This document shows, piece after piece, positions 18,764 through 51,588 of a stretch of DNA of 64,000 nt (position 1 is its first letter; every line of letters begins with the position of its first letter). The stretch lies in IMG/VR virus record IMGVR_UViG_3300037067_008629, positions 22,078 through 86,077 of that record. The stretch is one strand, 5' to 3'. Position numbers and translations under genes: made by a program. The notes beneath the pieces are model-generated. The model was given only the letters and a program-made list of their open reading frames with translations. It did not search any database and was not told the origin of the DNA. This stretch comes from a virus. Taxonomy: Duplodnaviria; Heunggongvirae; Uroviricota; Caudoviricetes.

Positions 18764-19339
18764 CTAAATATCAATGTGTGACCATCGAGTTCGATTTAAA
18801 ACTTGAGTAATTGCTGGGGTGCAACAATTAAATTTAGTAGCAATTTGTCGGTGAAATAACCCAAGATTACGAAGTCTAAAAATTTCTGGGATATCAATTG
18901 GTCTTAGTTTTCTATACTTTGATTGTCCACCCTTTGCTTCTTCGTGACGAATATCAATATAACAATTTTGAGGACTATAGTGTCCTAAATCCCGTTTTCT
19001 GTGTACCCACAAACCTTGACGCCAATTATTGGACACTGCCCACTGTTTAAAATTTAAATATGATCTCCACGATATACAACATCCATGTTTGCTGCCCTTA
19101 ATTCGAGTCCATACATCATAAAGAGCACTCCTACTATCACCGTGTCTTCTATTCCCACAACTATTACATCCTTGACTGGCTTTAGTTTTAAGATGATTTG
19201 CTTGTATTGTCTTTGTTTTACCACAAGTACATAAACAATCACAATAGGTTCGACCATTTTGTCGAAACGTAGTTAATACTTTCCACTTACCAAATTGCAT
19301 TCCAGTTAAATCTTGTAAAGTAGGCATTATTTTTTCCAT
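18764..19339 (-). CDS. Cys-rich zinc-finger protein (HNH-like endonuclease family common in phages)
   Basis: GMQFGKWKVL...YCDCLCTCGKTKTI...CNSCGNRRHG is a pattern I associate with phage zinc-ribbon/HNH-like proteins. It sits immediately next to the DNA polymerase gene. Confidence 0.35.
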   Translation of the reverse strand: MEKIMPTLQDLTGMQFGKWKVLTTFRQNGRTYCDCLCTCGKTKTIQANHLKTKASQGCNSCGNRRHGDSRSALYDVWTRIKGSKHGCCISWRSYLNFKQWAVSNNWRQGLWVHRKRDLGHYSPQNCYIDIRHEEAKGGQSKYRKLRPIDIPEIFRLRNLGLFHRQIATKFNCCTPAITQVLNRTRWSHIDI

Positions 19340-21693
19340 GTAATATGCAATGTTTTAGAACCCGCTTTCTTTTCGGCCCAATTATTCATTGCTAATTGCC
19401 ATTTAAGTCCAATTAATGGAACCTGTGGTCTAAAGGATTCAACTGCGTGTTGTACTGTATCCGCAACAGTATCAATTACATTTGGATGCGTGACGCATAA
19501 AATCTCATCGTGGATATTCATGGGGGCAACTAATAAAGGTCCCACACCTACAGGCTGCAAATCCCATACTTTCCGTTGAACGGCTTTAGTAATTTGAGCA
19601 CCAGGAGACTGAATTAAGTGATTATTAGCCGCTCGCATATCCGCAGCTTGAATCTGGAATGCAGCACCAAATAAAGCCGACTGTACAGCACCACCAGCTG
19701 TTTGAACTCGATCTCGACGTGTCACTTTAACAGGGCAGGCGCGCCAGGCTTTTGGTGGTTGATTAGCTAGTTTAAATAATTCTTTACAAATCTTATTTTC
19801 AAGTGTAAAATATCGTCTAAAACCTAAAAATGTCTCACAATAATCAGACGGGTCTTTCCAAACAACTTGTGTGCCTAAACCTCCAGGTTGTCGCATTGAG
19901 CAAAAATTATCAAAAATTCTCATTCTCGCTTTTCCAATACCTGGATACTTAGCACACCATTTGTCATAAGCTTTCTTTGCTTGATCTAATGGGATTGACA
20001 ATTTTTGATTCCAAGTATTAAAATCTCCACCATATAAGAAGCCGAACATGCCAGATTTAGCCCGAGAATACAAATCCAGATCAGTGCCCTTTGATGCATT
20101 AATTTCTTCGTATGTTTTTCCATATAATTCCATGCCTAATAAAGAGTGGACACTTTTACCTTCAACAAGCGTTTGACGAAGATATTCATCATCAAACACG
20201 GCATCGGCGAGGGTTACTTCAAACGCATCAAAGTCACCACCACATAATTGATAGCCATCCCAAGTTAAAGGAAACATTCGACGAACAGTATCAGTCTTCT
20301 TGATGCCTTGTGCGTTCAAACCATCACCACCTGACATACGTGATGATAAAGCACCAATAACCTTAAAACTGGCATGAAAACGTTTAGCCTTTAGAAGCTT
20401 TGCATATAATTCAATTTCTTTAGATGCTGCCTTAATATCCAGTAGTTCAGTTGCTCGAATGGCTGCTGGATGTTTGCCTACTTGTAACTTACCACTATTA
20501 TTGCAGCGTAGACAACCCTCACCTAAACACTTGGTACACTCCTCTTCTTCAGTAATATACCAAGAGGCAACAGTTTCTAAGTTAGCTTTTCGAGTGCTTT
20601 CTTCAATAATAACGGCTTCGATTTCATCCATGGTTTCCATCAAATATCGACGAACTGAAGCTGGCTTATTAATATTAATTGGAGAACTAGCAACCTTGAT
20701 AATAGCTGCTTGCATCAGTTGTTCAAGTCCTGGGCGATCATATTCAAAGCCATGCCAACGCACCACAGGTACCATACATGCTAAAATACTATCATCATCA
20801 TTTGGTTCAGGTTCTCCGAAAAACTTATATAATCCCCGAGTATAGACAATATCATCATGAGCATACTCGCGCGCGTGTTCATTCTCATGCCAATGACGAA
20901 TATGCTCATGTATTAAGGCAGGCCAAGCCATCCCTACAAGTTTTCCTTCAGTATCATAGCATTCCCAATCAGGAGCCGAGGCAACTGCTGTAGCATACGG
21001 TGCATAACCTAATTCAAAAGGCCGCCAACTAGAATCTAGTTCAATATCGGCATAGTGATGTTTAGGCGGTGTTTTCATCGCATATTCTGCTAAGAATTTC
21101 AAGCCACCGGCTGCATTAAACTTTAATACCACATCTTTGAAGTCTGGATTTACTATACCCTTCTTCGAGGTAATATCAAGTACCTTCCATTTAGGAGCAG
21201 ACTTATCAACCGTCTTCGCAAAATAGATTCCGTCCAATTCAATCTTCCGTTCTAACTCTTGAGCTAAGGCATATGCAAGGGCTGTGGGGACTCTCTTGAT
21301 GCGTATATCCTCACGGGCCATTAACGACTGGAAGGGACCCTTGCGTGAGTGGAGAAGTAAATCCATGGCTCCAGCGGGCTTTACACAAGGACCATCAATA
21401 CCCTTGGGTTCGGCCTGAGCAATCTCTTCGATATGTTGCTCTGGAATCCAGTCTGGTGGTAATAAACTCCAAATAGTGTAGATTTTGGCTATATGAAACA
21501 TATCGAAAGCCAAATTGAAACCGACTACAGTGTGCTCACAAATCCACTCAATAAGAGCTAAAGTCTCACTAACAGGATGCTTCCAGACTTCATAAAGCGT
21601 AATATTTCCCTCTTCAACAGCGTATTGCAATAGCACCATCATGCTATGCAAGCCGCAAGTTTCAGAGTCAAGATATAATTTAGGTGGATTCAT
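19327..21693 (-). CDS. family A DNA polymerase with 3'-5' exonuclease
   Basis: Exo I is DSETCGL. Pol motif A is DFDAFEVTLAD, motif B is RAKSGMFGFLYGG (R-x-x-x-K...F-G-x-x-Y-G), and motif C is NIHDEIL. Confidence 0.8.
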   Translation of the reverse strand: MNPPKLYLDSETCGLHSMMVLLQYAVEEGNITLYEVWKHPVSETLALIEWICEHTVVGFNLAFDMFHIAKIYTIWSLLPPDWIPEQHIEEIAQAEPKGIDGPCVKPAGAMDLLLHSRKGPFQSLMAREDIRIKRVPTALAYALAQELERKIELDGIYFAKTVDKSAPKWKVLDITSKKGIVNPDFKDVVLKFNAAGGLKFLAEYAMKTPPKHHYADIELDSSWRPFELGYAPYATAVASAPDWECYDTEGKLVGMAWPALIHEHIRHWHENEHAREYAHDDIVYTRGLYKFFGEPEPNDDDSILACMVPVVRWHGFEYDRPGLEQLMQAAIIKVASSPININKPASVRRYLMETMDEIEAVIIEESTRKANLETVASWYITEEEECTKCLGEGCLRCNNSGKLQVGKHPAAIRATELLDIKAASKEIELYAKLLKAKRFHASFKVIGALSSRMSGGDGLNAQGIKKTDTVRRMFPLTWDGYQLCGGDFDAFEVTLADAVFDDEYLRQTLVEGKSVHSLLGMELYGKTYEEINASKGTDLDLYSRAKSGMFGFLYGGDFNTWNQKLSIPLDQAKKAYDKWCAKYPGIGKARMRIFDNFCSMRQPGGLGTQVVWKDPSDYCETFLGFRRYFTLENKICKELFKLANQPPKAWRACPVKVTRRDRVQTAGGAVQSALFGAAFQIQAADMRAANNHLIQSPGAQITKAVQRKVWDLQPVGVGPLLVAPMNIHDEILCVTHPNVIDTVADTVQHAVESFRPQVPLIGLKWQLAMNNWAEKKAGSKTLHITWKK

Positions 21694-24149: not shown

Positions 24150-24677
24150 TTACCCTTTCCACGATACTGGGCATGGTACCACAATCTCCCCGTTCTTAAT
24201 AAGACCTAAAACTTTAATATCTTCATCTGATTCTATTAAATCTCGGTTGTTTGCAAACCAATCAATTATAGGGATTAGTTCTGGATAAGTTTTTTCAGCC
24301 CTATCTTTACAAATCTCTACGTCAGTGTCGATTATCTGCATGTATCTAGTCCACAAAACATCTTGTGAACATTTAAAATCATCACGGTTTTTTCTCTTCA
24401 GAGAGGTTGCATCAAGAATAACTACCTTATGTCCAGCAAGAAATAATGATCTCACCATTGTACGTGCAGTGGCCCAAATTTCGTGCTCAATTGGTCCCCA
24501 CCATCGCATACCAGTTTTAGCAAGCCGGATAGCATCAGGGCAAACAATTGGATATCCTTGTGCTAGTGCCCAAGTAGATTTACCAGAACGTGGCAAACCT
24601 ACCATCATCACTAACATATTGTCCTTGCTATTTGGATTATATATCCCAACATCACAACTTCTATCGGCTAGTATCAT
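24150..24677 (-). CDS. polynucleotide 5'-kinase (T4 Pnk kinase-domain-like P-loop protein)
   Basis: Walker A MMVGLPRSGKSTWA closely matches T4 Pnk GCPGSGKSTWA. Length is 175 aa. It sits directly beside tRNA-Asn and a phosphoesterase and RNA ligase lie just upstream. Confidence 0.55.
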   Translation of the reverse strand: MILADRSCDVGIYNPNSKDNMLVMMVGLPRSGKSTWALAQGYPIVCPDAIRLAKTGMRWWGPIEHEIWATARTMVRSLFLAGHKVVILDATSLKRKNRDDFKCSQDVLWTRYMQIIDTDVEICKDRAEKTYPELIPIIDWFANNRDLIESDEDIKVLGLIKNGEIVVPCPVSWKG

Positions 24678-24846
24678 TTTTCAACCAACTCTATTACCAA
24701 GGTATTAGTCAATTCTTTTTTACTATTACTAACTTCACAAGAATAAATTAAATCAATATCGTCATAGTATCTATCATCATACACAAATACTTTAACAGGC
24801 ATGTCGCTAGAGTATTCTTGTAGCTTTAAAATTAATTCACTAACTG
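24674..24846 (-). CDS. small hypothetical protein (not in ORF track)
   Basis: 57-codon ORF reading [31 protein letters not shown]. Its stop overlaps the kinase start (ATGA). Confidence 0.3.
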
Positions 24847-26142
24847 TCATATTCCAACCTCGTCCATTAATGCAATTTTATAACGTTGTGGACCTTTTTG
24901 TTCGTCATCAGTTTTAAGACTAACAGGTAAACGCCAAGTTATACCATACTTGGAATTTATTCCATGCACAAGTTGCTTAGGTTCCGAATAGCCACTAAAT
25001 GCATTGTAACTATAGGCATCAGTAGCAACCCAAGCTCCATTCACCAGTAACTCGCCATCTATATCGGTAAGAGTAGTTGGTCGGTGGAAGTGGCCGCAGC
25101 AGTAATAACGTATATGCGTATTCATTGCTTGATTCAAAGCCATGATACGTCGCTGACGGCGTTCCATTCCATACCACGGAATTCCCATAGTTGATTTGAT
25201 ATCGTCGCCATGGAAGCACTGAAACCCAACTCCTCCAATATCAATATTGATACTAAATGAATCTGGAATAACAAAATTAATATTCTTAATATCTCGGCAG
25301 TGCATACGAGCGGTTTCGGCAACCAAATAATCCCAATTGTCATGGGCACCATGGTAGTCCTTTTTAATCGAACGTCTTCCATGGTTTCCAGGAACATAAA
25401 CTACATTTACTGTCTCAAAGTATGGTGCCAAATCCCGATACATTAAGGAATGGAGTTCACCGATAGCAAATGAATTCTTGAACATATTCCTAAAATATGA
25501 TCGCTGATTGGCATTATGAATTTCGCCACTCGTATGATCCCCATATGCAAGGACAGTCAGTGTAGGAAATACAAACTGAGGTGCTAGCGTCTGTTGTGTC
25601 CACTTTAATACTGTATCGACATAATGTTCAGCCCGCCGCATACTAATTGGAAAATTGTACCTTTCCAAACCACCACATTCAGATGGATTTACAATCTGGT
25701 CATGGTGCCCATCACTAATATGCATAACTAGATGTTCTTCAATATGCTGGTCCTTTATAAGTTTACGTTCAATTGGCGGGACAGTCTTTAATCCAGACAT
25801 TGGAACGACAATACGTTCCATTTCTTCAACAACCGTCTTAAATAGACCATGTGTCTTAGTCATAGCCTTCACTTGTCGTTGCTTCACATTCCGTTCATCC
25901 TTTAGATGCATTACTTCCGCTTCTAAAGTTAAGACTCGATCATCCGGATCAAGATTTTTTAATTGACCCCCGCTCTTCTTCTGTGGAACTGCAATATCCA
26001 CTTGCGACCAAGCTCGTCCAGTCGCAATATCAGAAATTAAGGATCGACTGACTTTGAATCTTTGAGCAATTTGAGGCTGGGTCAAAGTTCCATTAATAAG
26101 TAATTCCTTGATACTTCTTACTTTTTTAGGATTTAATTTCAT
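24847..26142 (-). CDS. calcineurin-like metallophosphoesterase with N-terminal HTH
   Basis: Metallophosphatase motifs are present in order: HISDGHHD (DxH), [15 protein letters not shown] (GNH), CFHGDD and CGHFHRP (GHxH). The N-terminus has an HTH ([24 protein letters not shown]). Confidence 0.6.
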
Positions 26143-26280
26143 TTAGATTTCCTTAAATATTGTTGTGCAATTTTTAATAATTTTATGTTGTCTTTAAAGG
26201 CCCCTAGACCAATATTACACTTTTCGCATAACAACCCCCTAATCTCTCCTGTTTGATGATCGTGATCCACGGATAATGCT

Positions 26281-26499
26281 TTATTTAAATTGGCGGCGTT
26301 GTGCTGGATGCTTTTTGTATGATTGTTGGGCAGCTTTCTGTGAACACTCTTTACACCACCAATCCAATCCGTCTTTCCTTGCCGTATTTTTATAAAATAA
26401 ACAAATACGTTTACGTTTTCTACAGTGTTTACAATACTTGGTTTTTATTCCAGTGGTTAATTTAATGGAAGTCACTACGTCTAATCTCCAAATAATCAA
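26281..26499 (-). CDS. small zinc-ribbon protein
   Basis: CKHC...CKEC (CxxC...CxxC) in a 72-aa basic protein. Confidence 0.35.
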
Positions 26500-27561
26500 C
26501 CGACACTGCTTTTAGAATTAATCGACCACCGAGAATCGGACTAAAAGTTTCGGTCAAAGGGGTAATCACGACACCTTCACGACCTTTAAAAGCTGATCGC
26601 ATATGTACCTTATCACCAATAATAGTGTCTCCATCCACAAGTTGTTCTACCACTTCATAATCAAATGGCCCAGTATATAGTAGAGGAACTAATGGGATAC
26701 AAAAACGAGTAGTATAATAGACAATTTGATCCCAGTTTAAGTAAGTACCATCGACTGAAATATCAAATAATGCATAACCATCGGCACCAAATCTACCGTA
26801 GTCCATAAATTGGACCTTGGAACCATAAATTTCTCCGAATGCAATCACATTCTTTCCACCATCAGAGATACACCGAAGCATATCCTTCATATTGGATGTA
26901 AGTGGATTCCAATAAATAGACGGATGCTCCAGCTTATCAAGAGACTTCATTGAACATTTATGTGACCCACACATAAATTCATTGTCAATTAATCCAACAC
27001 GCGAATTAGTACCGTGAATTTTTTCGGTTAAACGCACTGGCGTTCCAAGTGGAATTGCATTCCGATACTTAGAATTTCGATAATTTTGAATATCTGTATA
27101 GATGTGAATCGGGGATCATTCTTGGCATTATCTCCAACTCTAAACCATTCTGGTTCTGGTGGTTCATATTTAACACCATGAAAACGATCCGTAAGATCAG
27201 TTCCAGCTTCCACATCTACTTTAATTGTGTCACAGATATCACGCCTCTGTGCAGGCACCAAGAACCCAAATGAAGCTGCCCCACGTAAACGAATAGCACC
27301 TACTCGACACCTAGATTTTTCAGAATCTCCCGGATAAACTGCATCTTTGAGATAATTCTCAACTCCGAGTTGTACAGCTACTTTAGGGGGTATGAGTATG
27401 TCTGGTGGGAAGTGGGCAACAACATCGCCCACTTGATACTTACCTTTTGTTTCACAAGTTTGATAGGCACCAATCTTAACAATTTCTAATTTATCTGCAT
27501 TAATGTGTGGATAAATGGCATCAACTTTAACAGCCAAAATACTCAAATCACTCATGCGCAT
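26462..27561 (-). CDS. Rnl2-like RNA ligase with N-terminal tRNA-binding-like OB domain, interrupted by a frameshift at the C4 run 27112-27115
   Basis: Downstream frame: DIQNYRNSKYRNAIPLGTPVRLTEKIHGTN aligns to the T4 Rnl2 N-terminus [33 protein letters not shown], with motif I KIHGTN. Motif III is AFGEIYGSKVQ and motif IV is EGVVITPL. Upstream frame 27028..27561: ILAVKVDAIYPHINADKLEIVKIG resembles the Myf/EMAP tRNA-binding OB domain. The two frames join if one C is added to the cccc run (minus strand) at 27112-27115. Confidence 0.6.
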
Positions 27562-29147
27562 CCTCCAATTAATTTATCAATAGCATTAACAAAATCTTCA
27601 ACTCGATCCCCACCAACAAGATGCTCGAAATCAATGGTGTTGGCTTTCTGTACCATTGCCTCTAAGCTAGTGTTGTCTAAAATCAACATTTTAGCCACTT
27701 CAGTATACTGCTGGTAACTAGTAGTAACTAATTCATCCATACCAGCCCTACGTAGCAAATAAGATGCCGCTCGATTAAACCATTGAGTACCTTCTAACGT
27801 AACTACTGGGCGACCACACCAGAGAGATTCCAGTATTGTATTATAGCCTCCAAAAGGATAGCTGTCAACTGAAAAATGACAATTTGCCAGAACTTCCATG
27901 TACTTCTCATATGGTAAGTTAGGCACTATCGTTATATTCTTTCCAAAATACTCTAGCATTGACATACGTACAGGTATTGATGCTTGATATCTATGGATTG
28001 GATGCCCTGGCATAAAAACTAAATGTGCCCCTACTGCTTGAAGTTCCTTTAAACATTGAAACATTGGTATATTATATTTGATTGCGCTCCAAGGCACTGC
28101 GACTCTAATTTGATCTGAAAGTGATGCTTTTACTTTAATTGTAGGCAAAACCGGTAATACACCGCTTCCTGGAAGTAGTATTAAGTTTTCAGAATAATTC
28201 TTTTTCCAATCTAATACTTCAACTGATTTTCCAGACAGAAAATAATCAATTTGATTACCCCTACCGGATACAGGATGACCATGGCAAGCAACCTGCACCG
28301 GTGCTAGCCTCATATTGGATAGATAAATAGACTCTGCTGTTAATCCAATATCTAAAAATAAAGCCATACCAAAAGTTGTAGTTTGAATCTCTGATAAATC
28401 TAATCCCCGATCACTTACAGATACTTGTGCAACATTTTTAAAAATAGATAAATCCGCTGTCGCATCAATTGGGCCTAAATGAACCAGTGTGAGTTTATAT
28501 TTTTCAGCTAAAGCATAGACAAGTTTTCCTATTGACTTCGCTACAACATGAGTTGGTTTCCAATTACTGGTGACAATAGCAATATGTTTAAGATTGGGCA
28601 CATTATCTGGTGTTGGTAATGTAAAACTCTTATTAAATTGTCTCTTTACTTTTTGGGCGGTATTTGATGAAAAATAATCCGACCAAAAATAAGCCTGCGT
28701 ACTTTGAGGGAGAAATACACAACGTGGATGAATATTTTTATAATGAGATTCAATATTTTTCTGAAGATTAGTATCTGTACAACCAATAATTGGCAAAATA
28801 TATTGAGCAAACCATAAAGATGCTAAATTTCTATCATGTTTAAAAAATTGTCGTGAATCCATGCTGTCTCTATTTCGTCCTGTATAGAGAAACATTTGTT
28901 TCACTGGATCATCAAATAAATTGAGCCACTGATCCGTTGTTTTATATGGAGTGACTGCAACTATATTTGCATAAATATGACTATAAGTTAGTAGCTGATA
29001 AGCCTCATCTTTGGGTACATCCTGGTCTTTAAGAATCTCTAAAACACCATCGGCTGCTTGAATAAACATCCCAAGAATCTGGCCATCAAGTTTATTGATA
29101 CCAACACGAGCAAATGGATCAAGTATAGCCTGTATCTGTTCAATCAT
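27552..29147 (-). CDS. GT41-family (O-GlcNAc transferase-like) glycosyltransferase, paralog A
   Basis: DSYPFGGYNTILESLWCGRPVVTLEGTQWFNRAASYLLRRAG matches the OGT C-terminal catalytic signature ([38 protein letters not shown]). MRLAPVQVACHGHPVSGRGNQIDYFLSG parallels [27 protein letters not shown]. No TPR region is obvious. Confidence 0.6.
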   Translation of the reverse strand: MIEQIQAILDPFARVGINKLDGQILGMFIQAADGVLEILKDQDVPKDEAYQLLTYSHIYANIVAVTPYKTTDQWLNLFDDPVKQMFLYTGRNRDSMDSRQFFKHDRNLASLWFAQYILPIIGCTDTNLQKNIESHYKNIHPRCVFLPQSTQAYFWSDYFSSNTAQKVKRQFNKSFTLPTPDNVPNLKHIAIVTSNWKPTHVVAKSIGKLVYALAEKYKLTLVHLGPIDATADLSIFKNVAQVSVSDRGLDLSEIQTTTFGMALFLDIGLTAESIYLSNMRLAPVQVACHGHPVSGRGNQIDYFLSGKSVEVLDWKKNYSENLILLPGSGVLPVLPTIKVKASLSDQIRVAVPWSAIKYNIPMFQCLKELQAVGAHLVFMPGHPIHRYQASIPVRMSMLEYFGKNITIVPNLPYEKYMEVLANCHFSVDSYPFGGYNTILESLWCGRPVVTLEGTQWFNRAASYLLRRAGMDELVTTSYQQYTEVAKMLILDNTSLEAMVQKANTIDFEHLVGGDRVEDFVNAIDKLIGGCA

Positions 29148-30901
29148 TGAATAATAACTGGAGTCTTATTAGGTAGTGGATGATTTGCGATAATATAGTC
29201 GATTGCTTTAACAAAATATTGAGGTTCATCAGTATCCAACAATAAGTTCTTTAAACGATTAACATCAACTAATTTATCTCTTTCTTCTTTAAGAACTTGT
29301 GGATTATCCAAGAGTGCTAAAATTTGTTCTTCGCACATTTCAATACTTGTGGTGGATAAATCTACTCCAACCCGTCTCGCCAAAGCTGTTGACGCCCTAT
29401 TATAGAACTTATCACCTTCAATAGTCACAACAGGGCATCCAGCAAAGAACGAGTCTACAATAGTATTATAGCCACCAAATGGATATGAATCAACAGTCAG
29501 ACTTCCTTGTTCCACCTTAGCGAGATAATCCTGATATTCAAGATTAGGATAAATCGAAACCTGGCCACCAAAGAGTTCTTGTAGTTCTCGACACATAATT
29601 GGAAAATTATTATAGCGAGTACATGTCCATGATGGGAAAAATTGATAGTGTATCTTTAATTTAGATTTTTGTTGAACATTTCTTAGCATCTTCAACATCG
29701 GCCAATTAATTTTAGCTGTTGTCCAGCAACAGTTAATATAAATTATATCTGTAGCCTCTGGATAACGACGTGTATATTTAGGATCAACTGGATGCGCACC
29801 CAATCCTGGAATCAAAATTAGATGCTCACTATAATTATCTTGAGCTAATTCAATTTTTTCAGAGTCAATCCCACCAATAAAATAGTCTACAAATGAACCA
29901 TATGTGCTTACAGGATGTCCATAACCACAAACCATAATAGGAGCAAGTCTTGTATTTGCAAGAAAAACAGATTCGTCTGTCATTCCAATATCAGGAAAGT
30001 ATGCCAATTCAAAATCATTTTTCTTAATAGCAGTTAAATCATGTTTCTCCATTCCAGCATGAACCTGAACAACTTGTTTAAATAGAGACCTATCTATTCT
30101 ATCCATTTGTGCTTTACTTGAACAGACTAGAGTTAAGTCATACTTTTGTGCCAGAGCTGCGATCTGAGGATAACTACTTTTATAAACTGCCGTAACTGGA
30201 ACCCATTTATCTGTGATGATAGCTAGGCTTCCTTTTCGAGGCACACTAGTTATTTTATGCAAGTTAGAAAATTTCTTAACTTGTTGATTGCACCATTCTT
30301 TAATGGGTCGCTCATTAATACCTGAATATGAACATTGAAAATACATAGGTTGAACACGACTATCAGGTAAATCAAGTTCTGGTAAAAATTCAACTAGGTG
30401 TTTAATCATATTTTTAGTTAAAAATTCAGACGTGCCTCCAGGAGGGGCAGTAGAAAAATTATTCCACCATAAAGTTGCTAGTTTAGGATTGGGCGTAACT
30501 AGTGCTTTAGTATTAATTCCAATATCATTTCTACACGTATACAGAAATAATAATTTTGCATAATTTCCTTCTTGGTATATTAATGCTCTTAGTACACCAT
30601 CAGTAGTGCGATGGCCAGATATTGCCACTAGATTGGCAAATAAATGATTAATACCGATAAACAATGGAATCCAGTTGTCTGGGAATCTGAAATCTTCTTG
30701 CAGCATTAAAAAGAAAACAAACTCCACAAAAGAATCTATTCGCTTTATATCTTCTTTTCCAAAAGAAGCATAATTAACATCATTGCAATGCTTTAGTATT
30801 GCAAATATATCTTGACAAAGCTTATCGTATCTCTTCTGTGTATATAGTGTCAAAGCATACCGAGTATCAAAAGCCGGAAAATTAGTAATTGATGTATTCA
30901 C
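29144..30901 (-). CDS. GT41-family (O-GlcNAc transferase-like) glycosyltransferase, paralog B
   Basis: DSYPFGGYNTIVDSFFAGCPVVTIEGDKFYNRASTALARRVG and RLAPIMVCGYGHPVSTYGSFVDYFIGG carry the same OGT catalytic-domain signatures and are clearly paralogous to 27552..29147. Confidence 0.6.
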   Translation of the reverse strand: MNTSITNFPAFDTRYALTLYTQKRYDKLCQDIFAILKHCNDVNYASFGKEDIKRIDSFVEFVFFLMLQEDFRFPDNWIPLFIGINHLFANLVAISGHRTTDGVLRALIYQEGNYAKLLFLYTCRNDIGINTKALVTPNPKLATLWWNNFSTAPPGGTSEFLTKNMIKHLVEFLPELDLPDSRVQPMYFQCSYSGINERPIKEWCNQQVKKFSNLHKITSVPRKGSLAIITDKWVPVTAVYKSSYPQIAALAQKYDLTLVCSSKAQMDRIDRSLFKQVVQVHAGMEKHDLTAIKKNDFELAYFPDIGMTDESVFLANTRLAPIMVCGYGHPVSTYGSFVDYFIGGIDSEKIELAQDNYSEHLILIPGLGAHPVDPKYTRRYPEATDIIYINCCWTTAKINWPMLKMLRNVQQKSKLKIHYQFFPSWTCTRYNNFPIMCRELQELFGGQVSIYPNLEYQDYLAKVEQGSLTVDSYPFGGYNTIVDSFFAGCPVVTIEGDKFYNRASTALARRVGVDLSTTSIEMCEEQILALLDNPQVLKEERDKLVDVNRLKNLLLDTDEPQYFVKAIDYIIANHPLPNKTPVIIQ

Positions 30902-32060
30902 AAAGTATCCCTTCCTGTAAAATTAGAAGTTTTCGGTATTTGATTCCACGATATTCAATATCTAGTTTAATATCTTTAGCCCGCCACGGTGTTGTAATAA
31001 CAATAATTGGATCAATAAGAGTATTTAGTATATCCGGTGACTGAATTTCTTGACCTGTTCCAGGAACAAACTTACCAACTTTATGTACATCTGAATCAAC
31101 CACCAACGGATAATTAACACTATCAATCCCATAACTGTTTAAAAAGGCCGCACTTTTACCAGTCCCACCCCAAAAAACTAGCGTCTTACCCTGCTGCCTT
31201 ATTTCTTCTAATTGTCTTCTAACCGTACTAATAGAATCTTTAGCACCGATACCAAAGGCTTTAGCTGTGTCATTATAAAACTGTAATGGCACACTATTAG
31301 GTGTGAAAAAACCAGCAAGTACTTCGTTACCGTAGTATCTATTTATATCAAGGGTTGAGTATCCAGACTGAGTAAAGAGTGTCTGAAAACTGTTTGAAGT
31401 AAAATTAGATACATGCTCGTATAAAAAGTCAGAAATTCGGCCCAACGCTAATGAGTTATCAAAGCACGGAACTTCGACCAAAACAATTGGTGATAAATTA
31501 TATCTACTACACCAGTAGGCTATTTCAGATAAAAATTCTCTCGGCCTATCCATATGTTCAATAACATGTCGGCATACAAGTAAAGATGGTCTAAATCGAG
31601 CTAAATCACGCTCTGGAATAAAATAATCTCTAAAGACCGAAAAATTTTTAACTTGGTCGCCTTCGATTCCTGGCTCATAACCAATACAAGAAGCAGTGGG
31701 TACAGTACCGAGCAGACGGGTGAAAAATTGTCCATCACCACATCCGATATCAATTGCTATGCCATTTATCCAACGTTCCTTGTATGTATGGAGTTTATTG
31801 ACTAATATTTGCATATGAGTCTGCCACTCTGGTCCGCTATTATACATCAAATTAGAATCTTCAGCATAGGGGACTTGTGCATAATTAAAATTTGCATTAA
31901 AAACATGTCCACAGAATGAGCACATGTGAAAATTCATAGGAAACCTGAGCGCATTCTGTGCCATAGCGGCCGATCTTGGTAAATTTAGAGCGGCCAATGG
32001 TTGAGGGCCTGGATCAAAGATTTTCTGGGTTAATCTGCTACCACATACTATACATCTCAT
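30882..32060 (-). CDS. SAM-dependent sugar C-methyltransferase-like (zinc-ribbon + class I MTase + C-terminal domain)
   Basis: The N-terminal CIVCGSRLTQKIFDPGPQPLAALNL matches the zinc-binding N-domain of sugar C3-methyltransferases (TylCIII/NovU type). Motif I is IAIDIGCGDGQF. The ~390-aa size fits that family. Confidence 0.55.
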   Translation of the reverse strand: MRCIVCGSRLTQKIFDPGPQPLAALNLPRSAAMAQNALRFPMNFHMCSFCGHVFNANFNYAQVPYAEDSNLMYNSGPEWQTHMQILVNKLHTYKERWINGIAIDIGCGDGQFFTRLLGTVPTASCIGYEPGIEGDQVKNFSVFRDYFIPERDLARFRPSLLVCRHVIEHMDRPREFLSEIAYWCSRYNLSPIVLVEVPCFDNSLALGRISDFLYEHVSNFTSNSFQTLFTQSGYSTLDINRYYGNEVLAGFFTPNSVPLQFYNDTAKAFGIGAKDSISTVRRQLEEIRQQGKTLVFWGGTGKSAAFLNSYGIDSVNYPLVVDSDVHKVGKFVPGTGQEIQSPDILNTLIDPIIVITTPWRAKDIKLDIEYRGIKYRKLLILQEGILCEYINY

Positions 32061-34735: not shown

Positions 34736-35304
34736 TTATCTGAATCCCAAATAACTTTTACATTTTCTGATTTGTAGATATCTTCTGGTAGGATATAATC
34801 TCCAAAACTAAAATACCATTTTAGTTTTCTCTCAATATCACAAGCAAGTATCAATTCAGAACAATATAAGGTAAGCTGATCGGGCTGAAATTGAAAATCG
34901 TAAGAGGTCCCAACCAATGACTTACACTTTTTAATTACTCTTTTTATATACTCTTTATCCCAATCATAACATTCTAATAAAACTACTCGATCTGATGTAT
35001 GGCATATATCAAAAAATGTACTTTTTGTATACCCTAGATGAGTCATTTCTCCTACTTCATAAATAGTTCCTTTTCCCACACACAGAGAGGCATGATCCAA
35101 ATCTCCAGGTGTCAAAAAAGATGAAATTCGTGACTCATCTGTAGACAAAATAATTTGCCCTGGTTTTAATAACTTGTATCCTTCTCGATACTTTTTTCCA
35201 GTTAAACGAGTATGATTACAAGAAATCCGAACCCAGGATAGAATATCTCGTACTATCCAAAGATAGATTCTTGTTGTCATACACCATTTTAATAGAGTTC
35301 GCAT
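34732..35304 (-). CDS. permuted papain-fold peptidase, YiiX/DUF830-like
   Basis: GDLDHASLCVGKGTIYEVGE (His-first) and a C-terminal YCSELILA nucleophile Cys, which is the permuted NlpC/P60 layout. Confidence 0.4.
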   Translation of the reverse strand: MRTLLKWCMTTRIYLWIVRDILSWVRISCNHTRLTGKKYREGYKLLKPGQIILSTDESRISSFLTPGDLDHASLCVGKGTIYEVGEMTHLGYTKSTFFDICHTSDRVVLLECYDWDKEYIKRVIKKCKSLVGTSYDFQFQPDQLTLYCSELILACDIERKLKWYFSFGDYILPEDIYKSENVKVIWDSDK

Positions 35305-48802: not shown

Positions 48803-49297
48803 TTAGCTAGATTTTAACCAAGCTGTTCCAGCACCCCATATATCGCCAGCCTCATCAAATTGAAAATCAAATTCTTTATCAGGGTGGGCATCACTCCAAA
48901 TCCAAATATCACTTTTTAGACACAACCTGTTATTATTAGTATCAAAATGTAAGAGGTCACTTAGGTAAGCAATGGCCTCTTCACTTGCATTTATACTATC
49001 GCGGACCTTAGTTTTACTTAAATCTAATACAAGTCCATCACCTACCAAAGGTATAGTTTTAACCCCTGGATAAGGCGTTTGGACGGGGGCTTGTATTGGT
49101 GAGTTTATTGGATTGGGTGTCGAGATAACCTCACCGCTTCTATTTACATTTCCAATGGTTTTTGCTATAAAATTAACATCAGATGGATGTCTATCTCCTG
49201 TGTCATGGTTACGAATATCGACTGTTTTTTTTCGTGAGACACTAGAATTTCCAGTCGATAAAAATTGATCCTCAGGTCCTAAAGTATCTACTATCAT
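48803..49297 (-). CDS. tail/virion structural protein, putative
   Basis: Last gene of the tail module, position-based call. Confidence 0.3.
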   Translation of the reverse strand: MIVDTLGPEDQFLSTGNSSVSRKKTVDIRNHDTGDRHPSDVNFIAKTIGNVNRSGEVISTPNPINSPIQAPVQTPYPGVKTIPLVGDGLVLDLSKTKVRDSINASEEAIAYLSDLLHFDTNNNRLCLKSDIWIWSDAHPDKEFDFQFDEAGDIWGAGTAWLKSS

Positions 49298-51588
49298 AAT
49301 GGTAGGTCTCCAATTGCATCTTCACCTATCCAAGCACCACCAGAGTGGCCCCAATGCACTTCATAATCAGTAGGGTATATCCATTCAGATGAAACATCTG
49401 CTGGCCAAGCAAAATCATAAGGGGTTAAAGTACCAAATTTAATCGGCAACCAGCATTCAAGATCAATTAATTGATCGGTTGAATTAAAATTTGCTTTTTT
49501 AACAATACCTTTTACTGGTCCTGTAGCAATATAACTTTTTTCAAAATTTAATGTGATACAGTCTAGAGTTTCAATATTTAATTTATGAAGAAAGGTTCTT
49601 AGATTAATTTGTTTCCAAGTATTTGATTTTCGGATTAACCAAAATGTAGCCGCTTTTAAAATAATATCTGGCTGATTATAAATATAAAATTCCGTAGTTT
49701 CTTCGTGTACACCATAATACCCAACATTATGTCTTAGTATAAGTCGATTAAGTTTATCATGAGCATAAGAAATTCTCCACTCAATAACCATTTTGGTCAC
49801 TAAATCTTCTGTAGCTGACCCACTGACAGAAATGCTATTAACTTCTACATCACTTTCAACTAATATATTACTTGACTCTGGTTCTTCGGCTAAATAAGTT
49901 AAATAAAATATACCATTTATTAATCTGAGACTGCAACGAGCTTGGAAGGCTATCTCCTGTAAAACTGTTATGACATTTTTACGATCAAGTATAGCAAAAT
50001 TAGCGGGAAAGGGTTCTAATCGAATACGTACATGATCAAAAGAAGTTGAATCAATAGCAAATTCTGTATAGGTATCAATGATGTATTCTAAAATATCAAC
50101 AACATTCGGTCCAACAGTTGATTCAAAGGTAACATAAATGTCATCACCCCAGTTTTGACCACCAATGGTGCTCAAAGTCTTATAAAAAACAACTTGAACA
50201 GCAGTAATTGAACCATATACTTTAGTTTCAGTATAGTAGTAGTTTGTCGGAACATCTACTAAATGTTTTACACCATTAAAGGTTTTAAATGCTTTTACTG
50301 ATAATACAGTTCCAGGAACAATACTAACAATATATGTTATAGGCTCGTTACCATATAGTGTAACAGATGATCCAGCATCGGCCCAAAAATGTTTGGGAGA
50401 AACAGGTGCGGCTTGAGAAACAGATACTCCAGCTGAATAAATTGTACCCTCTGTACGAATATAACATTGATCTCCAAAATCTCCTTTGCCACATGGTACT
50501 CTTGAGTAAAAATTAAATTCGCCGCCTGGACCAGGAGCAGTTGCACCACTAGCCTGTGCTTCTGCTACTTCATTATTGTATGCTGCTAAATTTTCAGGGT
50601 GATTTCGACTCACAATCGTAAATAAATCATCATTTACTCCCACAGTATTACCAAAATATCCTGTAAATAATCCACCATTAATATCAAGTGTAATCATATT
50701 ACGTGGAAAATCTTGTCCACCCAAAATACGAACAGGATTGGTTCCCAAACCTAGACTCAGAACCTCTGCAATTCTATCAGCCGCAGCTTGATTTTGTGAA
50801 GAAACAGAATCTGCTATGCCTTCTAATGCAGTGTTTATTGAAGCATCTAATTGTGATCGTTGGTCATTATATTTCTCATACTCATTATCATCCGTACCAA
50901 GCCAACAACTAGCAACAAGGCTAACGTGTCCTTTTTGAATCTGTTGTATTGCTAGACCACTAGTATCTGCCTCAATCGGTGGGTTATAAAATGTACTGCC
51001 ACTAAGAATTCCTAGACCAGCAAGAGACGTACCATGTGTTGCACTTCCTATTGCCACACATGGTACATCGAGCGGCGTACCAAAACAAGAGGGCCAAGCC
51101 TGTCCAATTAATTCAACTGGAATATAAGGAAATTGACCCTCTTCGGGAGAGAAACCAAACTCTTTATCCTCAATTTGGGATACAATAGAAAAACTAACTG
51201 TTTGTTCACCTTCATTCCATATAATTGGTGAATTTATTTTGCCACAAAATAGTAAAAACTTGTCTGTTAGTGCCAAGCCCTCAAACCATTGCCAAACACG
51301 TACATCACGCTTATGGATATCAGTCGAGTCTAAAATGGCTTTTAATGTACCGTCTGTATCATCAAATGTTATTTGAATTTCTTGTGAATCATTATTATCA
51401 GTAATAGCCACTACATCATCTAAGTCACTTAGTTCTAAGATTTTTCCCTTAACTCCTCCGACAATATCTCTATCAGCGTATGATTGCCAACCACCATCAC
51501 GAATCCATTGTATCTCAACAATAACAACAGGCTCATTACCAAGACGTGTTTGTAATTTTGCTAAGGCTGAAGTAGATAAAGTTCTCAT
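49294..51588 (-). CDS. large tail tip/fiber-like structural protein
   Basis: 764 aa, Gly/Ser/Thr-rich, lying downstream of the tape-measure and baseplate-like genes. Confidence 0.4.
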   Translation of the reverse strand: MRTLSTSALAKLQTRLGNEPVVIVEIQWIRDGGWQSYADRDIVGGVKGKILELSDLDDVVAITDNNDSQEIQITFDDTDGTLKAILDSTDIHKRDVRVWQWFEGLALTDKFLLFCGKINSPIIWNEGEQTVSFSIVSQIEDKEFGFSPEEGQFPYIPVELIGQAWPSCFGTPLDVPCVAIGSATHGTSLAGLGILSGSTFYNPPIEADTSGLAIQQIQKGHVSLVASCWLGTDDNEYEKYNDQRSQLDASINTALEGIADSVSSQNQAAADRIAEVLSLGLGTNPVRILGGQDFPRNMITLDINGGLFTGYFGNTVGVNDDLFTIVSRNHPENLAAYNNEVAEAQASGATAPGPGGEFNFYSRVPCGKGDFGDQCYIRTEGTIYSAGVSVSQAAPVSPKHFWADAGSSVTLYGNEPITYIVSIVPGTVLSVKAFKTFNGVKHLVDVPTNYYYTETKVYGSITAVQVVFYKTLSTIGGQNWGDDIYVTFESTVGPNVVDILEYIIDTYTEFAIDSTSFDHVRIRLEPFPANFAILDRKNVITVLQEIAFQARCSLRLINGIFYLTYLAEEPESSNILVESDVEVNSISVSGSATEDLVTKMVIEWRISYAHDKLNRLILRHNVGYYGVHEETTEFYIYNQPDIILKAATFWLIRKSNTWKQINLRTFLHKLNIETLDCITLNFEKSYIATGPVKGIVKKANFNSTDQLIDLECWLPIKFGTLTPYDFAWPADVSSEWIYPTDYEVHWGHSGGAWIGEDAIGDLPL

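What the first reader, a model, noticed from the sequence alone, without database searches (positions are those of the whole stretch)
27028..27130. Frameshift splitting the RNA ligase at a C4 homopolymer
The OB-domain ORF (27028..27561) and the ligase ORF (26462..27037) sit in different frames. The ligase frame is already open 26 codons upstream of its annotated start, and that stretch encodes a segment aligning to the T4 Rnl2 N-terminus (IQNYRNSKY against LENHYNSKF). Adding one C to the cccc run at 27112-27115 (minus strand) fuses them into ...GDNAKNDPPIHIYTDIQNYRNSKY...KIHGTN. The cause is a sequencing error, a pseudogenizing mutation, or a recoding event.
Basis: seen in the sequence. Interest (0 to 1): 0.55.

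Follow-up and report, generated by a model that had tools for sequence, protein, structure and literature searches.

The report
One-base deletion splits phage RNA ligase

Summary
The split is real in the sequence as given. On the minus strand, an OB-domain ORF (27028..27555/27561) and a nucleotidyltransferase ORF (26462..27037) lie one frame apart. Together they match the Rnl5 RNA ligase family end to end.

The break is not at the C4 run, which is at 27111-27114, not 27112-27115. Relatives read ...DPRFHIYTDIQNYRNSKY.... The window reads DPRF in the first frame and HIYTDIQ... in the second. DNA alignment shows one base missing at 27105/27106 (window CGATT-CAC, closest relative CGATTCCAT).

- **Relatives:** the four closest phage contigs and 116 of the 120 listed homologs have one uninterrupted ORF of about 353 aa.
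- **Other frameshifts:** across roughly 45 kb of window coding DNA checked against relatives, the only other gene that changes frame is the decayed endonuclease gene next door.
- **Selection:** both halves show strong purifying selection (dN/dS about 0.05). No near-invariant residue is altered.
- **Recoding signals:** there is no slippery heptamer and no RNA structure (z -0.65), and the site is not conserved in relatives.

Verdict: a non-programmed one-base deletion. Whether it is a genuine recent mutation (about 0.47) or an artefact (about 0.40) cannot be settled without reads. Interest is low.

The parts
27106..27555 (-). 5' part of the ligase gene (frame 0). It encodes the OB-fold N domain plus linker, from ATG 27555 through the Phe codon TTC 27108-27106 of the conserved DPRF motif.
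   Evidence: Pfam PF21189 OB domain. TIGR02306 profile positions 7-127. Collinear with intact orthologs up to DPRF. The ATGA overlap with the upstream stop is read.
27104..27108 (-). Site of the one-base deletion. The window reads TTCAC where relatives read TTCCAT or TTTCAT (Phe-His). Base 27106 serves both as the last base of Phe (frame 0) and the first base of His (frame -1).
   Evidence: DNA alignment A2 shows a 1-nt gap here. tblastn high-scoring alignments switch frame at 27106. It is the only uncompensated indel not divisible by 3 in a 10-kb alignment with L007.
26462..27106 (-). 3' part of the ligase gene (frame -1). It encodes the NTase domain from His (CAC 27106-27104) to the stop. 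The motif I lysine of KIHGTN is at 27022-27020.
   Evidence: Pfam PF09414. TIGR02306 positions 163-339. 93% aa identity to L001. Aligns to NgrRnl through K170, E227, E312 and K326.
27111..27114 (-). It is not the lesion. It forms the Pro codon plus the first base of the Arg codon in ...D-P-R-F....
   Evidence: Coordinates. The run reads CCAC in L001 and GCGC in L002.
27028..27105 (-). Out-of-frame tail of the first ORF as written: 25 junk codons (TSIQIFKIIEILSIGMQFHLERQCV) plus TAA at 27030-27028.
   Evidence: Translation. The same DNA encodes the conserved HIYTDIQNYRNSKY... segment in the other frame.
27035..27037 (-). GTG, the first canonical start codon in the ligase frame. It is a conserved internal Val codon in relatives, not a new start. 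It sits 5 nt upstream of the frame-0 TAA.
   Evidence: L001 has GTG and L002 has GTA at the same Val position. Only a weak GGA lies upstream (read).
27230..27262 (-). 33-nt in-frame insertion (LVPAQRRDICD) in a loop of the OB domain. It is specific to this genome.
   Evidence: Absent from 15 aligned homologs and from L001/L002 DNA. Single copy in the window. No exact copy in IMG/VR.

Best explanation
[quoted passage not shown] It sits in a replication and repair module.

In the sequence as given, one base is missing between the Phe and His codons of the conserved DPRFH motif (TTC-CAC -> TTCAC, 27105/27106). This is exactly where the NTase domain begins.

Translation as written gives the OB domain plus linker with a 25-residue junk tail. 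At best it also gives a 191-aa NTase fragment from an internal Val (GTG) codon. [quoted passage not shown] As written, the gene is therefore expected to be inactive or severely crippled. That last step is inferred.

The interruption is a plain, non-programmed one-base deletion that happened very recently or exists only in the record. I put a genuine recent mutation at about 0.47 and an artefact at about 0.40. The confidence given here is for 'plain one-base deletion at 27105/27106, not recoding, not a functional split'.
For: **Family and collinearity**
- The repaired protein matches TIGR02306 positions 7-339 of 341 in one stretch, 137.6 bits, against 65 and 59 bits for the halves.
- It also matches PF21189 plus PF09414.
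- The family profile matches NgrRnl residues 14-338 of 340, E 2e-10.
- An AlphaFold model of the 83%-identical ortholog P0001 has pLDDT 92.5 and matches NgrRnl structures at TM 0.72-0.77.

**Position of the lesion**
- Orthologs read DPRFH.
- The DNA alignment shows a 1-nt gap at CGATT-CAC.
- tblastn switches frame at 27106.
- It is the only uncompensated indel not divisible by 3 in 10 kb aligned to L007.

**Relatives are intact**
- L001 and L002 translate without interruption, and L007 carries the intact allele at the junction. L003 is uninterrupted apart from an intein.
- Of the 120 listed homologs, 116 are single chains of 337-385 aa. Two carry inteins and two are cut by contig ends.

**No decay**
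- dN/dS against L001 is 0.035 for the OB part and 0.064 for the NTase part.
- On the window's own branch, 74 codons changed synonymously and 14 non-synonymously.
- There are zero deviations at near-invariant columns in a 114-sequence alignment.
- In the 72 nt between the lesion and the GTG, 3 of 4 differences from L001 are synonymous in the ligase frame.

**No recoding signals**
- No X XXY YYZ heptamer lies in the overlap (read).
- The RNA fold z-score is -0.65.
- There is no Rfam hit.

**Importance of the missing parts**
- NgrRnl lacking its N domain keeps 4% of nick-sealing activity (PMC4408790).
- The R149A mutant keeps 15% (PMC7261155).
Against: - Reads are not available, so a real mutation cannot be separated from an artefact.
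- No second copy of this genome was found in IMG/VR, JGI metagenomes, GTDB genomes or the gene-position index, so the allele could not be checked independently.
- The GTG lies 5 nt upstream of the frame-0 stop, so termination-reinitiation could yield some truncated NTase. Its inactivity is inferred from other Rnl5 enzymes, not shown.
- The repaired protein scores below the NCBIfam equivalog cut-off (137.6 against 151.15).
Confidence: 0.87

Rival explanations
1. Sub-case of the best explanation: the missing base is only in the record, through a base-calling, consensus or assembly error. The phage really encodes an intact 364-aa Rnl5 ligase.
For: - The gene is otherwise pristine, with no altered near-invariant residue and strong purifying selection on the window's own branch.
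- Every close relative is intact.
- One indel in 64 kb is within what metagenome assemblies produce (general knowledge, not measured here).
Against: - No other conserved gene changes frame in about 45 kb of coding DNA compared with relatives, so the assembly is not error-prone.
- The lesion is in a 2-base run (CC, or TT/TTT), not a long homopolymer where indel errors concentrate.
- The locus shows real decay next door, the endonuclease VII remnant.
Confidence: 0.4
2. Functional two-piece ligase. The OB module and an NTase fragment are made as separate polypeptides, the second by termination-reinitiation at GTG 27037, which overlaps the TAA at 27028-27030. They work together in trans.
For: - The GTG start and the TAA stop overlap (GTGCGTTTAA), the geometry of translational coupling.
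- Both halves are under purifying selection.
- A natural fission/fusion polymorphism of another gene exists in this phage group, at 48803-51588.
Against: - The GTG is the ancestral internal Val codon. The GGA upstream is also present in L001, so nothing has adapted to the split.
- The 26 codons lost from the NTase are still conserved in the ligase frame, 23/24 aa identical to L001 with mostly synonymous differences. This is not expected if they had become a junk tail.
- Those codons include invariant Tyr and Thr residues and the Arg149-equivalent region (PMC7261155).
- No homolog shows such a split.
Confidence: 0.06
3. Programmed recoding: a -1 ribosomal frameshift, or transcriptional slippage at the C4 run, restores a full-length ligase.
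For: - A -1 shift is the direction needed.
- A shift right after the Phe codon, re-reading C27106, would regenerate the exact ancestral DPRF-H sequence (read).
Against: - There is no X XXY YYZ slippery heptamer. tRNA-Phe on UUC would have to re-pair with AUU, and tRNA-Pro on CCC with UCC (read).
- No downstream structure beyond shuffled controls, z -0.65, and no Rfam match.
- A 4-nt run is too short for RNA polymerase slippage (established knowledge).
- The run is not conserved, reading CCAC in L001.
- A shift at the C run would replace the nearly invariant Phe.
- A +1 slip on CCC-C leads to a stop after 13 codons.
- All relatives encode the protein in one frame.
Confidence: 0.03

Closest known systems
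Rnl5 family nick-sealing RNA ligases: Deinococcus radiodurans DraRnl and Naegleria gruberi NgrRnl (PDB 5COT; PMC4408790, PMC7261155)
   Same: - Same two-domain order: N-terminal OB domain, then NTase, with no C-terminal appendage.
- Full-length collinear match to TIGR02306 and to NgrRnl residues 14-338.
- Motif I Lys, motif III Glu, motif IV Glu and motif V Lys all align.
- The ortholog model superposes on NgrRnl at TM 0.72-0.77.
   Different: - Only about 22% identical to NgrRnl.
- Scores below the NCBIfam equivalog cut-off.
- Carries an extra 11-aa loop insertion.
- The reading frame is broken at the OB/NTase boundary in this window.
- No activity was tested.
Phage-encoded Rnl5 homologs, for example in Caulobacter phage CcrColossus, Sinorhizobium phage phiM12 and Pseudomonas phages, annotated 'RNA ligase'
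   Same: Same family in phage genomes. 142 phage records match, and 127 of them cover at least 80% of the query in one piece. Phage homologs are also noted in PMC4408790.
   Different: - At most 31% identity.
- The window's phage lineage has no cultured relative.
- Most of these matches (127 of 142 records) cover at least 80% of the query in a single piece.
T4 RNA ligase 2 (Rnl2; PDB 2HVQ, 1S68)
   Same: The NTase domain is homologous. T4 Rnl2 residues 2-174 align from the point of the frame switch onward (fold match).
   Different: - Rnl2 has a C-terminal domain and no N-terminal OB domain.
- TIGR02307 scores 20 bits against a cut-off of 197.
- This gene is not a member of Rnl2.
Programmed -1 frameshift genes (dnaX; phage tail chaperone G/GT type)
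   Same: Two overlapping ORFs one frame apart, with the downstream one in the -1 frame.
   Different: There is no slippery heptamer, no stimulatory structure and no conservation of the arrangement in relatives.

Membership tests
Rnl5 RNA ligase (DraRnl/NgrRnl) | N-terminal OB-fold domain followed by a C-terminal NTase domain, with no C-terminal appendage | tested here: met
   PF21189 plus PF09414 in that order. TIGR02306 positions 7-339 of 341 in one stretch for the repaired ORF. NgrRnl residues 14-338 of 340. The ortholog model matches 5COT and the 6VT* entries at TM 0.72-0.77.
Rnl5 RNA ligase (DraRnl/NgrRnl) | Catalytic motifs: motif I Lys nucleophile (NgrRnl K170), motif III Glu (E227), motif IV Glu (E312), motif V Lys (K326) | tested here: met
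   In the profile alignment to NgrRnl, the K of tEKihG aligns with K170, the E of GEI with E227, the E of REG with E312 and the K of lKavS with K326. The window residues KIHGTN, GEIYG, REGVV and LKAVS are all present. There are no deviations at near-invariant columns.
Rnl5 RNA ligase (DraRnl/NgrRnl) | Score above the curated NCBIfam TIGR02306 equivalog cut-off (151.15 bits) | tested here: not met
   137.6 bits for the repaired protein, and 65.1 and 59 bits for the halves. It is a divergent phage branch. JGI names the homologs 'RNA ligase (TIGR02306 family)'.
Rnl5 RNA ligase (DraRnl/NgrRnl) | Both domains on one polypeptide (needed for adenylylation and nick sealing) | tested here: not met
   The frame is broken at 27105/27106 in the window as given. 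This feature is met in all close relatives. NgrRnl without its N domain keeps 4% activity (PMC4408790).
Rnl5 RNA ligase (DraRnl/NgrRnl) | ATP-dependent sealing of 3'-OH(RNA)/5'-PO4 nicks through a lysyl-AMP intermediate | not testable with these tools
   This is biochemistry and would need recombinant repaired and as-written proteins.
Rnl2 RNA ligase (T4 Rnl2) | NTase domain plus the signature C-terminal domain, with a full-length match to TIGR02307 | tested here: not met
   TIGR02307 scores 20-22 bits against a cut-off of 197, covering the NTase part only. PDB 2HVQ matches only residues 2-174.
Programmed -1 ribosomal frameshift | Slippery heptamer X XXY YYZ in the ORF overlap | tested here: not met
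   The frame-0 codons from 27115 to 27028 were read and contain no such heptamer. Re-pairing at CCC->UCC or UUC->AUU is imperfect.
Programmed -1 ribosomal frameshift | Downstream stimulatory hairpin or pseudoknot | tested here: not met
   The fold of 27125-26990 gives -24.3 kcal/mol, z -0.65, and 43 of 200 shuffles fold at least as well. No Rfam match.
Programmed -1 ribosomal frameshift | Conservation of the two-frame arrangement in relatives | tested here: not met
   The ligase ORFs of L001, L002 and L003 read in one frame and L007 carries the intact allele. So do 116 of 120 homologs.
Transcriptional slippage | Long homopolymer (about 8 nt or more) at the shift site, conserved | tested here: not met
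   The run is 4 C's and reads CCAC in the closest relative.

The most novel reading that the evidence does not exclude
The deletion is real and tolerated because the ligase still works in one of two ways. Either it works as a naturally split Rnl5, with the OB module and a truncated NTase made by termination-reinitiation at the GTG/TAA overlap and assembling in trans. Or a low-level -1 shift right after the UUC Phe codon regenerates the exact ancestral DPRF-H protein. Either case would be a new way of expressing a two-domain ligase.
Probability: 0.05. Interest if true: 0.5.

Novelty: new member of a known kind. Interest (0 to 1): 0.12.

Why it matters
It matters mainly for annotation. The two ORFs should be annotated as one Rnl5-type RNA ligase gene with a frameshift at 27105/27106, or corrected if reads show an error. 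They should not be annotated as an 'OB protein' plus a short 'RNA ligase'.

If the deletion is real, this phage has just lost the sealing step of a likely RNA-repair set. That set would be the ligase together with the neighbouring polynucleotide-kinase-like and phosphoesterase genes. The loss would show that the function is dispensable in its current host. Neither outcome changes what is known about RNA ligases or about recoding.

Tried and rejected
1. **Independent copy of this genome.** None was found, so the deletion allele could not be verified.
   - Exact-product look-ups for the 191-, 177-, 175- and 431-aa proteins returned nothing.
   - A pattern accepting both alleles found only intact alleles in IMG/VR and JGI metagenomes, and nothing in GTDB genomes.
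   - blastn against GenBank phages found nothing.
2. **DNA of the best protein hit, P0001.** It is not on record. IMG/VR relatives were used instead.
Rejected because orthologs keep Arg-Phe in frame 0 and the run is not conserved.
4. **Frameshift-stimulating structure or a known RNA family.** Nothing above background.
5. **Long-standing pseudogene.** Rejected because of low dN/dS and intact conserved residues.
6. **Error-prone assembly.** Rejected as a general property. No other conserved gene changes frame in about 45 kb compared with relatives.
   - One apparent second split, at 49.3 kb, turned out to be a natural two-gene arrangement with an ATGA overlap that is shared with relative L019.
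7. **The 33-nt OB-domain insertion as a repeat or mobile element.** It is single-copy in the window and absent from IMG/VR, and remains unexplained.
8. **Intein co-conversion as the cause of the 56-nt identical tract next to the lesion.** Not supported, because identity is low at the intein insertion site itself.
9. **phmmer of the single sequence against PDB.** It gave only noise. The family profile was needed.

Full report
**What is in the sequence**

On the minus strand, ORF 27028..27561 (177 aa) and ORF 26462..27037 (191 aa, GTG start) overlap by 10 nt and lie one frame apart. The downstream frame is open back to a TGA at 27118-27116, which is 26 codons before the GTG. The likely true start of the first ORF is the second ATG, at 27555. 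It overlaps the stop of the upstream gene as ATGA, follows a GGAGGA, and matches the MSD/MSE start of all homologs.

**What the gene is**

- The first ORF carries the PF21189 OB domain and the second carries PF09414 RNA_ligase.
- Joined, they match NCBIfam TIGR02306 (RNA_lig_DRB0094, the Deinococcus DraRnl family) over positions 7-339 of 341 in one stretch. The score is 137.6 bits, against 65 and 59 bits for the halves, though it is below the 151-bit equivalog cut-off.
- A profile of the close homologs matches Naegleria gruberi RNA ligase (NgrRnl, PDB 5COT), the structural exemplar of Rnl5, over residues 14-338 of 340 (E 2e-10). It matches T4 Rnl2 only over the NTase domain, residues 2-174, starting at profile position 138.
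- An AlphaFold model of the 83%-identical ortholog P0001 has pLDDT 92.5. It superposes on the NgrRnl structures at TM 0.72-0.77, with T4 Rnl2 next.
- The enzyme is therefore an Rnl5-type ligase, with an N-terminal OB domain followed by an NTase domain. It is not Rnl2.

**Where the frame really breaks**

More than 1,100 homologs were found. Of the 120 listed, 116 are single chains of 337-385 aa, two carry inteins and two are cut by contig ends.

The protein alignment shows that orthologs read ...DPRFH(I/V)YTDIQNYRNS.... The window reads N-D-P-R-F in the first frame and H-I-Y-T-D-I-Q in the second. The switch therefore falls between Phe and His, not in the Pro codon.

The DNA alignment with the closest relatives confirms this:

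| Sequence | Bases at the junction |
|---|---|
| window | CCCCGATT-CACATC |
| L001 | CCACGATTCCATATC |
| L002 | GCGCGTTTTCATTCT |

- One base is missing at 27105/27106.
- The 'C4 run' is not a homopolymer in the nearest relative.
- tblastn with relatives' proteins changes frame at 27106.
- In a 10-kb alignment with L007, this is the only uncompensated indel whose length is not a multiple of three.
- The right repair gives DPRFH and a 364-aa protein.

**Relatives**

The window belongs to an uncultured phage lineage. It has no DNA match and only remote protein matches in GenBank phages. IMG/VR contigs from metagenome 3300037067 and one JGI contig are syntenic at about 81% DNA identity.

- L001/L007 and L002 have an uninterrupted 353-354-aa ligase.
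- L003 has the same gene with an intein inside motif I.
- No contig carrying the deletion allele, and no second copy of this genome, was found in any collection.

**Is it decay, error or design?**

*Decay.* There is none beyond the single base.
- dN/dS against L001 is 0.035 for the OB part and 0.064 for the NTase part.
- On the window's own branch, 74 codons changed synonymously and 14 non-synonymously.
- The repaired protein deviates at none of the near-invariant columns of a 114-sequence alignment.
- The 72 nt between the lesion and the GTG still evolve as ligase-frame coding sequence.

*Error.* The assembly is not frameshift-prone.
- Across about 32 kb plus 20 kb of partly overlapping window coding DNA covered by relatives' proteins, only the ligase and the adjacent endonuclease VII remnant change frame. 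The remnant has a real internal deletion of about 75 aa.
- The lesion is in a two-base run, not a long homopolymer.

*Design.* There is no support for it.
- No X XXY YYZ heptamer lies in the overlap.
- tRNA re-pairing would be imperfect at CCC->UCC or UUC->AUU (read).
- The RNA fold is no better than shuffles, z -0.65, and there is no Rfam match.
- Four C's are too few for polymerase slippage.
- No relative shares the arrangement.

*Functional split.* A split through reinitiation at the GTG is geometrically possible, because the GTG lies 5 nt before the TAA. However, the GTG is the ancestral internal Val codon with no new ribosome-binding site. The product would also lack about 26 conserved residues of the NTase domain, including invariant Tyr and Thr residues and the region aligned with NgrRnl Arg149. 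The R149A mutant keeps 15% nick sealing (PMC7261155). NgrRnl without its N domain keeps 4% (PMC4408790).

**Conclusion**

This is a plain one-base deletion in an otherwise intact phage Rnl5 ligase gene (confidence 0.87 against recoding or a functional split).

| Reading | Probability |
|---|---|
| Genuine, very recent knockout | about 0.47 |
| Consensus or assembly error | about 0.40 |
| Functional split | about 0.06 |
| Programmed recoding | about 0.03 |

The first two cannot be separated without reads. The case for a genuine knockout rests on the low error rate elsewhere, the non-homopolymer context and the real decay next door. The case for an artefact rests on the gene being otherwise pristine.

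**Context**

The gene sits in a replication and repair block:
- family A DNA polymerase, 19327-21693
- ParB-like protein
- AAA_33 / polynucleotide-kinase-like protein, 24150-24677
- metallophosphoesterase-type exonuclease, 24847-26142
- the endonuclease remnant and the ligase
- two GT41-like glycosyltransferase paralogs
- a methyltransferase
- an SNF2 helicase

The kinase-like and phosphoesterase neighbours would fit an RNA 'heal and seal' set. This is inference only.

**Novelty and interest**

This is a new, damaged member of a known enzyme family in an uncultured phage. The value of the finding is in correct annotation, and interest is low.

Noticed in passing
L003 6552-8678 (IMGVR_UViG_3300037067_017894); also proteins P0008 and P0120: The orthologous ligase in a close relative carries an intein of about 350 aa (Cys1 ... 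VVTHN|S, with a LAGLIDADG-like endonuclease part). It is inserted inside motif I between Gly and Thr/Ser of K-x-H-G-T-N, next to the catalytic lysine. Two database homologs of about 505 aa also carry the PF14890 intein domain.
   Followed up: partly
window 26139-26499 (- strand): This is the remnant of an endonuclease VII / HNH-type gene that looks like a homing endonuclease. The gene is intact (182-185 aa, PF02945) in L002 and L004 at the same place. The window keeps residues ~6-56 and ~137-183 in two different frames and has lost about 75 aa in between. L001, L003 and L007 lack the gene altogether.
   Followed up: partly
window 27230-27262 (- strand): A 33-nt in-frame insertion (LVPAQRRDICD) lies in a loop of the ligase OB domain. 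It is absent from all aligned homologs and relatives, is more GC-rich than its surroundings, and contains a CACAGA...TCTGTG inverted repeat. It is single-copy in the window, has no exact match in IMG/VR, and its origin is unknown.
   Followed up: partly
window 27048-27103 (- strand): The longest exact DNA match between the window and L001/L007 in a 10-kb alignment at 81% identity is 56 nt (the next longest is 40). It starts 2 nt after the deletion site. It may only reflect conserved residues with AT-biased two-fold codons. Identity is not raised at the intein insertion site, so co-conversion is not indicated.
   Followed up: partly
window 48803-51588 (- strand): A 764-aa gene (49294-51588) and a 164-aa gene (48803-49297, joined by an ATGA overlap) form one continuous ORF of about 940-970 aa in relatives L018 and L020. 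They are split in the same way in L019. This is a natural gene fission/fusion polymorphism with a replaced linker, not a frameshift. The function of the protein was not examined.
   Followed up: partly
window 24150-26142 (- strand): An AAA_33 / polynucleotide-kinase-like protein (175 aa) and a 431-aa metallophosphoesterase-type 'exonuclease' with an N-terminal HTH-like segment lie just downstream of the ligase. Together with the ligase they could form an RNA end-healing and sealing set. This was not tested.
   Followed up: no
window 27552-30901 (- strand): Two adjacent paralogous proteins of about 530-590 aa, about 35% identical to each other, have weak matches to the GT41 (O-GlcNAc-transferase-like) glycosyltransferase family. 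A C-methyltransferase-like gene follows at 30882-32060. This may be a DNA or protein modification module.
   Followed up: no
window 34800-34822 (- strand) against L007: A 4-nt gap and a 1-nt gap lie within 15 nt in the window/L007 alignment. The net change is 3 nt, so this is a short compensated frame excursion or an alignment artefact in a 177-190-aa gene. tblastn shows a single frame there.
   Followed up: no
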